From a virus (Duplodnaviria > Caudoviricetes): DNA of 24,757 nt. The position numbers were made by a program, and so were the translations under genes. The notes beneath the pieces were generated by a model. That model did no database searches, was not told where the DNA came from, and was given only the letters and a program-made list of their open reading frames with translations. Below are positions 1,542 to 4,548 of the stretch, one piece after another. Every line of letters starts with the position of its first letter. Positions within the stretch are counted from its first letter, which is position 1. The stretch is taken from positions 1 to 24,757 of IMG/VR virus record IMGVR_UViG_3300019937_000009. One strand, 5' to 3'.

Positions 1542-4500
1542 ATGACTGCTACAATTTCACAACAACGACAATCGAATACTTGGGAACAGTTCTGCCAGTG
1601 GGTCACCAGCACTGACAATCGTCTTTATGTTGGTTGGTTTGGAACTCTTATGATTCCTTGCCTGCTCGCTGCTACAATCTGTTTCATCATTGCCTTTATC
1701 GGTGCTCCCCCTGTGGACATTGATGGCATTCGTGAACCCGTTGCTGGTTCACTCATGTACGGAAACAACATTATCTCTGGTGCTGTTGTTCCTTCGTCCA
1801 ATTCTATTGGACTGCACTTTTACCCCATCTGGGAAGCTGCTTCCCTAGATGAGTGGCTTTATAAATAATATTGGGTCACTTTAAATCGGGTGAACTGCTG
1901 GAAAGCTAAGTTCTCTTATGAAACACAAACATCATCTTACTCCAAAATATCTTGGTGGGTCTGACGAACCACAAAATCTTGTAGAGGTTTCTCCAACACA
2001 ACACGCTATGTTTCATTATTGCAACTGGCGTCTTTGGGAAAATGAAGAAGATAAGATTGCTTGGAAAGCACTTGCAGGGTATTCCTCAAAAGAAGAAATA
2101 ATCCAACAAGTCATTTCTCTCGCAGGTAAGAAGGGTGGTAAGGTTGCAAAAGAAAGCGGACAACTTCGTGCTGCTGCTATCAAACAACCTAAAAGTGCTA
2201 GGCAGAAAATTGGTAAAAACCTTATCAACTTTGCATATAAAAATCCAAAAAATGCAACACAAGAAACTCTAACTAATAGAAAGTATAAGAAAGTATTTCA
2301 CATCCACGAAAAACTAACTGAACGGTCTATTGGTAAACATCTTGGAAATATTGAGTTTAACCCAGAACAAGATAAAACACTTAAAACTGTTTGTTCTTTG
2401 ATACTGGAAAAGTATGGGGTAAAAGTTTATCCTTCACATCTCAATAGTGTTGCTAACGGAAATAGACTTTTAACGAGTGGTATTTCTTGTAGTTGGGTTT
2501 TAGAGAATACGCCAATCAGCAGCCAAGCCACAGACGATACTTCTGTGGAAGGTTCAGAGACTAGTCGGTTCAACAAGCGTGTTGAGTAATACGACATTAG
2601 CGCCCGACACCTTATGAAGATAATAAGGTGAAGATATAGTCCAGTCCATATGGAAACATATGGTTCCCCCGACTGCTATAATGGGGGTCCTTTCCAACTT
2701 GTAGTTTTCCACTTCCTCATCGGCATCTATGCTTACATGGGACGTGAATGGGAACTTTCTTACCGTCTTGGTATGCGTCCTTGGATTTGCGTAGCATATT
2801 CTGCACCTGTTGCTGCTGCTTCTGCAGTGTTCTTGGTCTATCCTTTCGGTCAAGGTTCTTTCTCTGATGCAATGCCTCTTGGAATCAGTGGAACGTTTAA
2901 CTACATAAACTAAACCAATGTGTAGTATAAATCGGGTGAACTGCTGGAAACCTAAATCGTATTGACTAACCTTTAACTTTATGTTATTATAAATAATATT
3001 AGATACATAAAGTTAAATGTCTAAAAGACTTACTATTGACGACTTAAAAAGTATTGCTGAAAATAGAAATCATACCATTGTTTCTATGGAAGGTTATACA
3101 GGAGTTAAAAGTAAAGTCCAGTTCTTCTGTAATACTTGTAATAATCATTTTGATACAAGTGTTGCTTCTTATAAAAACGCAAAGAAAACTGGTTGTCCTC
3201 ATTGTAGGAAAATCACTATCTCTAAAACTCAAAAGGGAAAAGATGTTAGTGAAAAAACCAGAAAACTTCTATCTCTAAGAGCACAAGGTCGTAAAGGTTC
3301 TCTTAAAGGTAAGTTTGGTAAAAACCATCCTGCATATAAAGGAACTCCAAATAGAGATTTTAGCAATCCCTCAACAGATTATTATATTTGGAGGGAGGCA
3401 GTAAAACAAAGGTTTAATAGAACTTGTGTTGTTACTGGTAAAAAATCCAACCTTGTTACTCATCATTTAGATAGTTGGAATGCATATCCTCAAAGGAGAT
3501 ATGATATTACCAACGGCGTTCTTATTCATAAAGAAGTTCATAAACTATTCCACGACATTTATGGTTATGGTAATAATACAGAAGAACAGTTTAATCTCTT
3601 TCTCAAAGAACAATACGACAAGGCAATCAGCATCCAAGCCCCAGACGCTTCTGGGGAAGGTTCAGAGACTACTGGGTGAACCAAGCGTGGTTCGTAATAC
3701 CAGATTAGCGCCCGACACTAATAGAGTTTCTATTAGTGATGATATAGTCCAATCCCTATGGAAACATAGGTTCCTCGTTCTGCTTAATAGGTTGGTTTTC
3801 CAAGCAGAACACAACATTCTCATGCATCCTTTCCACATGCTTGGTGTCGCGGGTGTTTTTGGTGGTTCTCTGTTTAGTGCTATGCACGGAAGCCTTGTTA
3901 CAAGTTCGCTCGTTAGGGAGACTACGGAAACCGAATCTCAGAACTATGGTTACAAATTTGGACAAGAAGAGGAAACCTACAACATTGTTGCTGCCCACGG
4001 ATACTTTGGTCGTCTGATCTTCCAATACGCTTCGTTCAACAACTCTCGTTCGCTTCACTTCTTCCTCGCAGCATGGCCTGTTGTAGGCATCTGGTTCGCT
4101 GCTCTTGGTGTAAGCACTATGGCTTTTAACCTCAATCGTAGGGGTCCCGTCTTAGCAATCTGACGGTAAACATCGGGTGAACTGCTGGAAGCCCTCCATA
4201 AATGGGTAATCAGCATCCAAGTCCCAGATACATCTGGGAAAGGTTCAGAGACTACCTGAGGGGTTTAGTCCCCTTAATAACAGGAATAAGTGCCCGACAT
4301 CCTTCTGGGATGAAGATATAGTCCACTCCTTAAAGATGGTAAATTTAAGGGTTTAGTGCAACGGTTTCAACTTTAACCAGTCCTTGCTTGATAATAACGG
4401 TCGTGTTATTAACACCTGGGCTGACATTCTGAATCGTGCAAATCTCGGGTTCGAGGTAATGCACGAAAGGAACGCACATAATTTTCCTTTGGACCTTGCT

Positions 4501-4548
4501 AGTGTAGAAGCAACTCCTGTTGCTCTCACTGCACCAACCATCGGTTGA
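1542..4548 (+). CDS. psbA: Photosystem II D1 protein, join(1542..1858,2676..2906,3791..4132,4359..4548), 359 aa
   Basis: Exons of 317+231+342+190 = 1080 nt give a continuous D1. Y161, D170, E189, H190, H332, E333, H337, D342 and A344 are at canonical positions; E130; C-terminal extension [15 protein letters not shown]. Confidence 0.97.
1860..1867 (+). promoter_or_regulatory. T4-type late promoter TATAAATA in the P1 loop of intron 1
   Basis: Exact consensus starting at the second intron nucleotide, 50 nt upstream of the endonuclease ATG. Confidence 0.65.
1918..2589 (+). CDS. Intron-encoded HNH homing endonuclease (N-terminal HNH)
   Basis: [34 protein letters not shown] motif; basic C-terminal half; lies inside intron 1. 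Confidence 0.85.
   Translation: MKHKHHLTPKYLGGSDEPQNLVEVSPTQHAMFHYCNWRLWENEEDKIAWKALAGYSSKEEIIQQVISLAGKKGGKVAKESGQLRAAAIKQPKSARQKIGKNLINFAYKNPKNATQETLTNRKYKKVFHIHEKLTERSIGKHLGNIEFNPEQDKTLKTVCSLILEKYGVKVYPSHLNSVANGNRLLTSGISCSWVLENTPISSQATDDTSVEGSETSRFNKRVE
2962..3017 (+). promoter_or_regulatory. Internal promoter(s) and start-sequestering hairpin of the intron 2 endonuclease
   Basis: TTGACT(2962-2967)-N17-TATTAT(2985-2990); TATAAATA 2988-2995; perfect 13-bp stem TTTAACTTTATGT(2972-2984)/ACATAAAGTTAAA(3005-3017) covering the A of the ATG. Confidence 0.75.
3017..3679 (+). CDS. Intron-encoded HNH homing endonuclease (N-terminal zinc ribbon, NUMOD3-like motif, C-terminal HNH)
   Basis: CNTC...[35 protein letters not shown]...THHLDSW...[14 protein letters not shown]. 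Confidence 0.85.
4133..4358 (+). mobile_element. Group I intron 3 in psbA (226 nt, ORF-less, within Leu297 codon CT|C)
   Basis: Exon ACCT pairs with GGGT (4142-4145); terminal G4358 restores MAFNL-NGFNFNQ. Core motifs at 4172-4190, 4208-4224, 4240-4253, 4290-4299 and 4315-4324; extra CCGTC/GACGG stem at 4147-4166. Confidence 0.93.

What the first reader, a model, noticed from the sequence alone, without database searches (positions are those of the whole stretch)
1542..4548. Phage psbA split by three group I introns, two carrying their own HNH endonucleases
Seen: three insertions of 817, 884 and 226 nt. Each starts after a U that forms a U-G pair in P1, ends in G and has a full catalytic core. 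Removing them restores a 359-aa D1 with all Mn-cluster ligands. Known: the classic cyanophage case (S-PM2) is a single ORF-less psbA intron served by a free-standing endonuclease (F-CphI). Inference: three splicing events gating one photosynthesis gene, with intron-internal endonucleases at codons 106 and 183, is unusual and may include undescribed insertion sites. I cannot confirm novelty without a search.
Basis: partly seen in the sequence, partly recalled or inferred. Interest (0 to 1): 0.85.

Follow-up and report, generated by a model that had tools for sequence, protein, structure and literature searches.

The report
Three-intron phage psbA, self-regulating nucleases
A T4-like cyanophage carries an intact photosynthesis gene (psbA) split by three group I introns, two with their own predicted DNA-cutting enzymes; environmental RNA holds the spliced forms of two, related phages carry up to nine such introns, and each enzyme gene sits beside a copy of its likely target site, probably to switch itself off.

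Summary
Observation confirmed: introns 1859-2675, 2907-3790 and 4133-4358 (psbA sites 317, 548, 890) have U-G and terminal-G boundaries and full IA1 cores, and removing them gives a 359-aa D1. At 97% likeness the exact joints of introns 1 and 2 stand in 2 of 2 RNA runs and 0 of 2 DNA runs; intron 3 is ambiguous. Both HNH ORFs are intact (dN/dS 0.15). The layout is not unusual: cultured S-SRM01 has three psbA introns, S-CBWM1 two with an internal endonuclease, and 25 of 47 near-full intron-bearing viral psbA genes have three or more, up to nine, over 17 sites. This scan noted such genes before on other DNA. What this case adds: ORF2 is 55% identical to the Oedogonium chloroplast site-548 HNH, but their ribozymes do not look orthologous; sites 317 and 890 are in no table I could read; two inverted copies of the site-548 target flank ORF2's promoter (top 2 hits in the window), predicting T4 I-TevI-type self-repression. 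Cutting, homing and repression are inferred. New member of a known kind; interest 0.45.

The parts
1340..1373 (+). psbA promoter: sigma70-like -35/-10 (11 of 12) overlapping a T4 late box TATAAATA (1366-1373)
   Evidence: same layout as described for S-PM2 psbA (PMC5931967 section 6)
1406..1504 (+). PhotoRC-II structured 5' leader RNA
   Evidence: Rfam RF01717 55.9 bits, gathering 39
1542..1858 (+). psbA exon 1 (CDS nt 1-317)
1859..2675 (+). Intron 1, group IA1, site 317, 817 nt; P1 1852-1858/1874-1880, no P2, ORF in L5a
   Evidence: RNA joint 1858>2676
1860..1867 (+). T4 late box in the P1 loop; exon-intron junction reads like the commonest intronless allele for 6 nt past the site (candidate operator for ORF1)
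   Evidence: 17 of 17 ORF1-bearing site-317 introns, 0 of 5 others; top hit of the site-317 matrix in the window
1918..2589 (+). ORF1, 223 aa, N-terminal HNH motif (H5/H6, N20, H29, H33); 3' end runs into the ribozyme core
   Evidence: PHROG 655 homing endonuclease E 6.9e-9; dN/dS 0.15 over 16 relatives
2676..2906 (+). psbA exon 2 (CDS nt 318-548)
2907..3790 (+). Intron 2, group IA1, site 548, 884 nt; P1 2900-2907/2919-2926, 8-bp P10 2912-2919/3791-3798, ORF in L5a
   Evidence: RNA joint 2906>3791
2962..2995 (+). Intron-internal promoter: sigma70-like -35/-10 (10 of 12, extended -10) overlapping late box TATAAATA (2988-2995)
2969..2985 (+). Copy of the site-548 exon target in the promoter spacer (candidate operator); also the 5' arm of the hairpin
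   Evidence: 20.7 bits, top hit in the window, 0 of 60 shuffles
3005..3020 (-). Second, inverted copy of the target; 3' arm of a predicted 13-bp hairpin (2972-2984/3005-3017) that covers the ORF2 start
   Evidence: 19.4 bits, second hit in the window; fold z -3.5, 0 of 200 shuffles
3017..3679 (+). ORF2, 220 aa, N-terminal zinc finger and C-terminal HNH (H149/H150, N166, H175, H179); 3' end runs into the ribozyme core
   Evidence: PHROG 1271 HNH E 1.1e-12; 55% identical to Oedogonium cardiacum chloroplast HNH over 177 aa; dN/dS 0.15 over 7 relatives
3791..4132 (+). psbA exon 3 (CDS nt 549-890)
4133..4358 (+). Intron 3, group IA1, site 890, 226 nt, ORF-less, with P2
   Evidence: always 222-229 nt in relatives
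4359..4548 (+). psbA exon 4 (CDS nt 891-1080, stop included)
4556..4584 (+). Intrinsic terminator-like hairpin and T run after psbA

Best explanation
These are three optional group IA1 introns in the psbA gene of a T4-like cyanophage: RNA from the field holds the exact spliced joints of introns 1 and 2, which restores D1, and the two internal HNH genes are likely homing endonucleases that would spread their own intron and are predicted to repress their own promoters. Step 1 (shown in sequence): the psbA transcript carries three complete ribozymes whose removal gives a 359-aa D1; unspliced reading stops within 2-11 codons of each 5' splice site. Step 2 (shown indirectly for introns 1 and 2, not settled for intron 3): they splice in infected cells. 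Step 3 (inferred): ORF1 and ORF2 are made from intron-internal promoters; on the long psbA transcript ORF2's start is held in a hairpin and ORF1's start lies against P5a, which would keep ribosomes out of a core that both ORFs overlap. Step 4 (inferred): each enzyme binds the psbA sequence at its own site, nicks or cuts intronless alleles in mixed infections, and repair copies the intron in; it also binds a target look-alike on its promoter (two inverted copies in intron 2, the exon-intron junction itself in intron 1), as T4 I-TevI does. Step 5 (inferred, weakest): ORF-less intron 3 has no partner in this window and is carried by recombination or by co-conversion from endonucleases acting nearby.
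For: Anatomy. Splicing: at 97% likeness joints 1858>2676 and 2906>3791 in RNA runs X9 and X16 (depth 60.5/169.3 and 33.6/61.5) and in neither DNA run, although X4 and X1 hold both introns and their intronless alleles show other exon letters; X4 shares the strain variants of X9/X16. Optional and mobile: each site is filled in a minority of 136 distinct viral psbA regions (317: 21, 548: 20, 890: 15), in many combinations, none with all three; third-position identity among same-intron alleles is raised only within about 15-45 nt of the site. Enzymes: intact, motif residues invariant, dN/dS 0.15, each family tied to one site or its near neighbour (ORF1 only at 317; ORF2 at 548, 63-65% relatives at 556). 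Regulation; target copies in 8 of 8 HNH-bearing phage 548 introns, 0 of 6 LAGLIDADG-bearing and 0 of 7 ORF-less; gp33 late co-activator in the window; T4 precedent in PMC2988022 (passages and section 10).
Against: The runs are assembled contigs, not reads; joint sides are 27-30 nt; RNA and DNA runs carry different study codes, and contigs drop rare variants, so a rare intronless allele with the same flanks is not excluded (12 of 80 intronless alleles do carry the intron-associated codon 184, 4 of 73 the site-317 signature). The intron-3 joint stands at 90% likeness in 3 of 4 RNA runs but at 97% only in DNA run X4 at depth 3.5. No cleavage, binding or homing data. Neither ORF reaches Pfam's HNH cut-off and no solved relative was found. 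Target look-alikes were clear in only 2 of the ORF families tested (548-HNH, 276) and weak or absent in 179, 230, 408, 499, 645 and 548-LAGLIDADG. TATAAATA alone is not rare (4 in the window, 15 of 100 shuffles reach 4). No conserved SD-hiding hairpin was found for ORF1 on the short transcript.
Confidence: 0.8

Rival explanations
1. The introns are kept because they serve the phage as light-dependent switches on D1 output, three in series giving tighter control.
For: The spliced-to-unspliced ratio of the S-PM2 psbA intron responds to light (PMC5931967 section 6). Unspliced reading stops early. Introns crowd into psbA: 72 of 77 viral loci with the core motif are psbA.
Against: Every site is optional and combinations are free; only 1 of 31 psbA genes fetched by an exon motif and not by an intron carried any intron; long and short forms and different endonucleases alternate at one site, the signature of selfish gain and loss. 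Crowding is also explained by psbA being very conserved.
Confidence: 0.12
2. The target-site copies beside ORF2 are relics of the endonuclease gene's entry into the intron at a sequence it could cut, or only an RNA hairpin, and are not operators.
For: The two copies are also the arms of the hairpin over the start codon, so RNA structure alone could keep them complementary; entry of endonuclease genes at target-like intron sequences is a published model (recalled; Bonocora and Shub 2009, seen only as a reference).
Against: A hairpin needs complementarity, not likeness to the exon; both arms beat the real, interrupted junction and all other places in the window; in site-556 relatives the element has drifted towards the 556 exon; one copy lies in the -35/-10 spacer.
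Confidence: 0.25
3. Intron 2 is a whole element (ribozyme plus endonuclease) exchanged as a unit between cyanophages and green-algal chloroplasts.
For: Same site (548), subgroup (IA1) and loop (L5) as Oc.psbA.6, HNH of 202 codons (PMC2442088 Table 4); ORF2 is 55% identical to the 202-aa O. cardiacum protein; phage sites 179, 276, 408, 570, 645 and 750 also occur in chloroplast tables.
Against: The plastid-like 548 core (L271) is 69-73% identical to phage 570, 992 and 1008 cores and 60% to phage 548 cores, has a P2 that the phage intron lacks, and the window's 548 core is nearest to phage 548 and 317 cores; on the quick tree it does not join phage 548 introns. That tree has long branches and the clade test did not reject (p-AU 0.083), and only one plastid-like copy was compared.
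Confidence: 0.2
4. The locus is an assembly chimera or a decaying psbA with non-splicing insertions.
For: No single laid contig spans the whole stretch; the 317/548/890 combination was not seen in 136 other viral regions.
Against: DNA run X1 covers all 30 bins with pieces of up to 908 nt without a difference across each intron and its flanks; all D1 ligands intact; compensatory changes in the core; each pair of sites co-occurs elsewhere.
Confidence: 0.03

Closest known systems
psbA of Synechococcus phages S-SRM01 (MW015081) and S-CBWM1 (MG450654)
   Same: Cultured cyanomyoviruses with several group I introns in psbA, one holding an HNH-type ORF: S-SRM01 sites 276 (ORF), 750, 1002; S-CBWM1 sites 649 (ORF), 1011 (PMC8557907 passages). 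ORF1 is 29% identical to the S-SRM01 intron ORF.
   Different: Other sites (317, 548, 890); two internal ORFs instead of one; no F-CphI-like gene downstream, which S-SRM01 has.
S-PM2 psbA intron with free-standing F-CphI (collaborative homing)
   Same: Same gene, same kind of ribozyme (intron 3 core 82% identical over 159 nt), ORF-less like intron 3, same promoter layout.
   Different: S-PM2 site is 1002, not 890; the window has no endonuclease next to psbA, so the collaborative pair is absent.
Oedogonium cardiacum chloroplast Oc.psbA.6 (site 548, IA1, HNH in L5, 202 codons)
   Same: Same site, subgroup and loop; endonucleases 55% identical over 177 aa; the gene has ten introns.
   Different: Ribozyme looks unrelated to the phage 548 ribozyme within IA1 (inconclusive test); the plastid-like copy lacks the late box and the target copies.
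T4 td/I-TevI, nrdD/I-TevII, nrdB/I-TevIII introns
   Same: Internal late promoter, hairpin over the start on long transcripts, ORF running into the core, operator resembling the homing site (PMC2988022 passages and section 10).
   Different: T4's three introns are in three genes; here two inverted target copies double as the hairpin arms (intron 2), and the late box and operator-like sequence sit in the P1 loop at the splice junction (intron 1); I-TevI is GIY-YIG.

Membership tests
Group I intron | U-G pair at the 5' splice site in P1 and terminal G | tested here: met
   All three; invariant in 16 site-890 introns
Group I intron | Core P3-P4-P6-P7-P8 with G-binding site | tested here: met
   Full pairing of P3, P4, P6, P7 in all three; compensatory changes in P2, P3, P5, P6a, P9.0, P9 of the site-890 family
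Group I intron | Rfam RF00028 at gathering score 50 | tested here: inconclusive
   Introns 1 and 3 pass (60.2, 75.8); intron 2 scores 47.6, E 7.7e-11, with the ORF splitting the model
Group I intron | Precise excision in vivo | tested here: met
   Introns 1 and 2: exact joints in 2 of 2 RNA and 0 of 2 DNA runs at 97%; contigs only. Intron 3 not settled
Group I intron | Protein-free, guanosine-dependent self-splicing | not testable with these tools
   Needs an in vitro assay
Subgroup IA1 | P7.1 enclosing P7.1a between P7 and the 3' strand of P3 (definition recalled) | tested here: met
   35-37-nt nested hairpin in all three, read by eye; the chloroplast intron at site 548 is classed IA1
Intron-encoded HNH homing endonuclease | HNH catalytic residues present and conserved | tested here: met
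   ORF1 N20, H29, H33 invariant, H5/H6 nearly so in 42 sequences; ORF2 H150, N166, H175, H179 invariant in 47; PHROG hits
Intron-encoded HNH homing endonuclease | Pfam HNH at curated cut-off, or beta-beta-alpha-metal fold | tested here: inconclusive
   Below cut-off for both; 18 of 42 and 21 of 47 family members hit HNH or HNH_2 at E<=0.01; no model was obtained; no PDB sequence match
Intron-encoded HNH homing endonuclease | Intact ORF under purifying selection, tied to one insertion site | tested here: met
   dN/dS 0.15 for both; site fidelity
Intron-encoded HNH homing endonuclease | Cleaves the intronless allele and drives homing | not testable with these tools
   Only indirect: narrow exon signature around each site, which P1/P10 pairing can also explain
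Collaborative homing (S-PM2 type) | Free-standing endonuclease adjacent to psbA serving an ORF-less intron | tested here: not met
   Gene after psbA is an 84-aa ORF with no family and no likeness to F-CphI
I-TevI-type endonuclease control | Internal late promoter upstream of the ORF | tested here: met
   1860-1867 and 2988-2995, conserved in all ORF1 and ORF2 relatives at fixed distance; function not shown
I-TevI-type endonuclease control | Hairpin hiding the start on long transcripts only | tested here: met
   Predicted for ORF2 (z -3.5; lost on the short transcript; compensatory version in site-556 relatives); for ORF1 only adjacency to P5a
I-TevI-type endonuclease control | Operator resembling the homing site, bound by the enzyme | tested here: inconclusive
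   Sequence likeness met; binding and repression not testable here

The most novel reading that the evidence does not exclude
Cyanophage psbA is an intron hotspot on the scale of green-algal chloroplast psbA (17 or more sites, up to nine introns in one gene) in which endonucleases and ribozymes are mixed as separate modules: the site-548 HNH enzyme has passed between phages and chloroplasts while sitting in different ribozymes, and in phages each enzyme brings or builds a promoter overlaid with copies of its own target, in intron 1 by turning the splice-site hairpin itself into promoter and operator. The copies then read out each enzyme's recognition site directly from sequence.
Probability: 0.4. 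Interest if true: 0.7.

Novelty: new member of a known kind. Interest (0 to 1): 0.45.

Why it matters
Intron-split psbA genes are fragmented by gene callers (S-SRM01's GenBank record lists only two D1 pieces and misses two introns) and may be missed by psbA amplicon surveys, so their frequency in fresh and brackish water is probably underestimated (inference). The field RNA joints extend evidence of splicing beyond S-PM2. The predicted operators name a 15-17-bp binding site for two untested HNH enzymes, which makes cleavage and autorepression directly testable, and the 55%-identical chloroplast enzyme makes the phage-plastid exchange question testable with a cross-cleavage assay. Mechanistically everything has a T4, S-PM2 or chloroplast precedent, and this scan has logged similar loci several times, so the interest is moderate.

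Tried and rejected
Structure prediction: no model obtained, so no fold search. PDB sequence searches gave nothing meaningful. Millard et al. 2010 (ISME J), which reports psbA introns in marine metagenomes, is not held; Xu et al. 2018 (S-CBWM1) was not read; either may list sites 317 or 890 or the chloroplast overlap. Chloroplast site maps given as figures (PMC4524492, PMC5088586, PMC5630911, PMC2997540) could not be seen and no supplements were opened. Paper searches for site names found nothing. A long, ORF-bearing form of the site-890 intron was sought and not found: 16 of 16 distinct copies and 20 of 20 psbA loci among 117 metagenome matches (about a quarter of that collection scanned) are 222-229 nt. 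A fixed downstream partner for site 890 was not found: near-full 890-bearing genes are followed by F-CphI-like, another endonuclease-like or unrelated ORFs. No cyanobacterial chromosome came up: the core motif hit 59 stretches of the genome collection, two in psbA, one plastid-like (L271) and one phage-like (L279), both in Flavobacteriaceae bins; the motif is narrow, so this is weak. Zero depth of the RNA runs outside psbA was not used as proof against DNA carry-over. My first site caller misplaced several sites and was replaced; four calls (989, 998, 1004, 1013) stayed unresolved and were left out of the 17 sites, L067 '540' was corrected to 548 and L016 '551' to 556+570. P10/P5a coordinates were off by one and redone. 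The ORF2 protein tree is the quick tree and was used only to show that the window groups with phage sequences and L271 with Oedogonium; no direction of transfer is claimed.
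Full report
1. What is there. The window is a piece of a T4-like cyanophage genome: it holds gp32, gp33, gp59, baseplate, tail-tube and head-closure genes with petE, phoH and thymidylate synthase (20 proteins scanned, 18 with a family). Runs holding the stretch are labelled freshwater, estuary, outdoor and seawater metagenomes. psbA runs 1542-4548 in four exons; the introns are 1859-2675, 2907-3790 and 4133-4358, after CDS nt 317, 548 and 890, and the joined frame is a 359-aa D1 with all Mn, chlorophyll and non-haem iron ligands checked in place. 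Each intron follows a U that pairs with G in P1 and ends in G; P3, P4, P6 and P7 pair completely, intron 2 has a perfect 8-bp P10 and intron 1 a 4-bp P9.0. All three have a nested P7.1/P7.1a, which I read as subgroup IA1 (definition recalled). Rfam passes introns 1 and 3 and just misses intron 2. Sixteen site-890 introns keep the structure by compensatory change.

2. Splicing. Four RNA runs laid at 90% likeness showed the exact joints of intron 1 (2 of 4 runs), intron 2 (2 of 4) and intron 3 (3 of 4), but intronless psbA of other organisms could give such joints. At 97% likeness, with two RNA and two DNA runs, the joints of introns 1 and 2 stood in both RNA runs and in neither DNA run; the DNA runs hold both introns (depth 406/326 in X4, 16/12 in X1) and their intronless alleles carry different letters after the site. 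The exon letters after each intron are allele-specific: codon 184 is TTG in 20 of 20 site-548 genes against 12 of 80 intronless, and the site-317 signature is in 16 of 17 against 4 of 73. This is good indirect evidence of splicing in the field. Limits: contigs, joint sides of 27-30 nt, unpaired studies. For intron 3 the only joint at 97% was in DNA run X4 at depth 3.5, so it is not settled.

3. The enzymes. ORF1 (1918-2589) has an N-terminal HNH motif and ORF2 (3017-3679) a zinc finger and a C-terminal HNH motif; both are below Pfam's cut-off, although 18 of 42 and 21 of 47 relatives hit HNH models at E<=0.01. Both lie in L5a, between perfectly paired P5a arms, and read on into P7.1. dN/dS against the window is 0.15 for both (16 and 7 relatives). 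ORF1 occurs only at site 317 (17 copies including the window, plus 3 of a 50-53% sister family); ORF2 at site 548, with 63-65% relatives at 556 and a 33% one at 570. An ORF-less site-317 intron with the same P5a arms exists (L465), and site 548 is also occupied by forms with a LAGLIDADG-like ORF or none (family name from the motif, recalled).

4. How common. A core motif scan of viral contigs gave 77 loci, 72 in psbA. With further scans there were 136 distinct viral psbA regions, 67 with introns; of 47 near-full intron-bearing genes 11 have one, 11 two, 15 three, 7 four, and one each five, six and nine (the nine-intron gene L016 splices to 359 aa). Seventeen sites were resolved, counting the three cultured phages. 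These counts are biased, since loci were fetched by intron features; among 31 near-full genes fetched by an exon motif and lacking the 890 intron, 1 had an intron. So intron-bearing phage psbA is a minority, but where introns occur several are the rule. The exact 317/548/890 set was not seen again. Cultured precedents: S-CBWM1 with two annotated introns, one with an endonuclease, S-SRM01 with three by my mapping, S-PM2 with one. Same-intron alleles resemble the window at third positions only near the site (0.65-0.85 within 15 nt, against 0.38-0.55 in intronless alleles; background beyond about 45-90 nt), as expected of elements spread over unrelated backgrounds, though P1/P10 pairing and general psbA recombination explain this too.

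5. The chloroplast link. ORF2's named relatives are green-algal chloroplast proteins of Oedocladium, Scotinosphaera and Staurocarteria at 49-50%, and a plastid-like psbA fragment in a genome bin (L271; introns mapped at 384, 408, 548) encodes a 52% relative that clusters with the 202-aa Oedogonium cardiacum HNH; direct identity to that protein is 55% over 177 aa. Table 4 of PMC2442088 lists Oc.psbA.6 at 548, IA1, HNH in L5, 202 codons, among sites 179, 276, 384, 408, 525, 548, 570, 645, 754, 898 (passages). Floydiella adds 333, 414, 790 (PMC2997540 passages) and Ulva 179, 750 (PMC10151680 passages). None lists 317 or 890, and ORF1's 67 homologues include no named plastid protein. The ribozymes do not follow the enzyme: the L271 548 core is closer to phage 570/992/1008 cores (69-73%) than to phage 548 cores (60%), and same-site phage cores are split over the tree, which suggests recombination among cores; holding all site-548 cores together was not rejected (p-AU 0.083, quick tree, long branches, one plastid-like row). 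I therefore read site 548 as a shared endonuclease in probably different ribozymes, which qualifies the 'one shared pool of introns' wording of earlier scan notes.

6. Predicted control. A late box lies 58 nt before ORF1, in the P1 loop, in 17 of 17 ORF1 introns and 0 of 5 other site-317 introns (15 of 15 versus 0 of 6 short and sister forms in an overlapping sample), and 29 nt before ORF2, where it overlaps a sigma70-like promoter laid out like psbA's own. A 13-bp hairpin covers ORF2's start on long transcripts (z -3.5) and is lost on a transcript starting at the internal promoter. A matrix of intronless alleles at site 548, run over both strands of the whole window, ranks the two hairpin arms first (20.7 and 19.4 bits), the real interrupted junction third (14.7) and everything else at 7.9 or less; the pair is in 8 of 8 HNH-bearing phage 548 introns, 0 of 6 LAGLIDADG-bearing, 0 of 7 ORF-less, and not in L271. 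For intron 1 the exon-intron junction continues like the commonest intronless allele for 6 nt (16 of 71 intronless genes), unlike other 317 introns. Of 18 intron ORFs tested against their own site, clear matches were the four 548-HNH and the S-SRM01 276 ORF; the rest were weak. T4 uses the same devices for I-TevI: late promoter, hairpin over the ribosome site, operator like the homing site, ORF overlapping the core (PMC2988022 passages and section 10). Binding and repression here are inferred.

7. Literature seen. Passages: PMC8557907, PMC5931967 (section 6), PMC2442088, PMC2997540, PMC10151680, PMC1513399, PMC4524492, PMC5088586, PMC5630911, PMC8955559, PMC3984707, PMC2988022, PMC6083498. Searches; none listed a catalogue of phage psbA intron sites, but Millard 2010, cited for widespread psbA introns in metagenomes, is not held, and figures and supplements were not seen. 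Earlier scan notes on other genomes already report three-intron psbA genes, the Oedogonium 548 match and operator-like look-alikes; they were read after my own tests of these points and are not counted as support.

8. Verdict. Real and well formed; a new member of a known kind. Confidence in the selfish, splicing, endonuclease-bearing intron reading 0.8; interest 0.45; the boldest reading left open (modular endonuclease exchange with chloroplasts and target-encoding operators) has probability about 0.4 and would merit 0.7.

Noticed in passing
L016 (IMGVR_UViG_3300042987_001812), 3406-8013: Phage psbA with nine group I introns (sites 179, 317, 499, 556, 570, 645, 890, 992, 1011; one exon of 14 nt, one of 19 nt); removal gives a 359-aa D1. 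Close to the ten of Oedogonium.
   Followed up: partly
L001 (S-SRM01, MW015081.1), psbA at locus 879-3287: A cultured phage has three psbA introns (276, 750, 1002); the record annotates two D1 fragments only and its paper mentions one intron.
   Followed up: partly
L271 (CAZAJH010000209.1) and L279 (RFXU01000325.1): Contigs in Flavobacteriaceae bins that are a green-algal plastid-like psbA and a phage-like psbA, so probably mis-binned.
   Followed up: partly
L013, L022, L044, L048, L060, L078 (site 548) and L019, L042, L061, L078, L098 (site 179): Phage psbA introns with single-motif LAGLIDADG-like ORFs near the 3' end; site 548 thus hosts two unrelated endonucleases in different loops; site 179 matches Oc.psbA.1.
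   Followed up: partly
L004, L019, L022, L072, L075, L192 (site 230): Introns of 901-916 nt with a 234-aa ORF of another family whose frame runs to the intron's 3' end; family not tested.
   Followed up: no
alignment A1, columns 135-170; tree: Site-890 introns come in two P7.1 types that also occur at other sites, and same-site cores fall in different clades: ribozyme modules seem to be swapped between introns.
   Followed up: partly
window 14112-14156 (+) and ORF 14188-14322: Glutamine riboswitch aptamer at the gathering score (35.1 bits) ahead of a 44-aa ORF; the ORF recalls DUF4278 proteins (recalled, not tested).
   Followed up: no
window 1406-1504 (+): PhotoRC-II RNA in the psbA leader; RNA runs show a variant with compensatory-looking changes at 1473-1475 and 1485-1487.
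   Followed up: no
L004, L019, L021, L072, L074 and others: A divergent D1 type (about 72-79% identity in the best segment) also carries introns (230, 499, 570, 645, 992, 1011).
   Followed up: no
L099-L124: Viral loci outside psbA encode proteins sharing only ORF1's N-terminal HNH domain (48-66% over 43-97 aa), so the nuclease domain is shuffled among DNA-binding tails.
   Followed up: no
L258-L315: The same intron core motif occurs in 57 non-psbA stretches of bacterial and archaeal genomes (Vibrio, Bacillales, Clostridia and others); host genes not examined.
   Followed up: no
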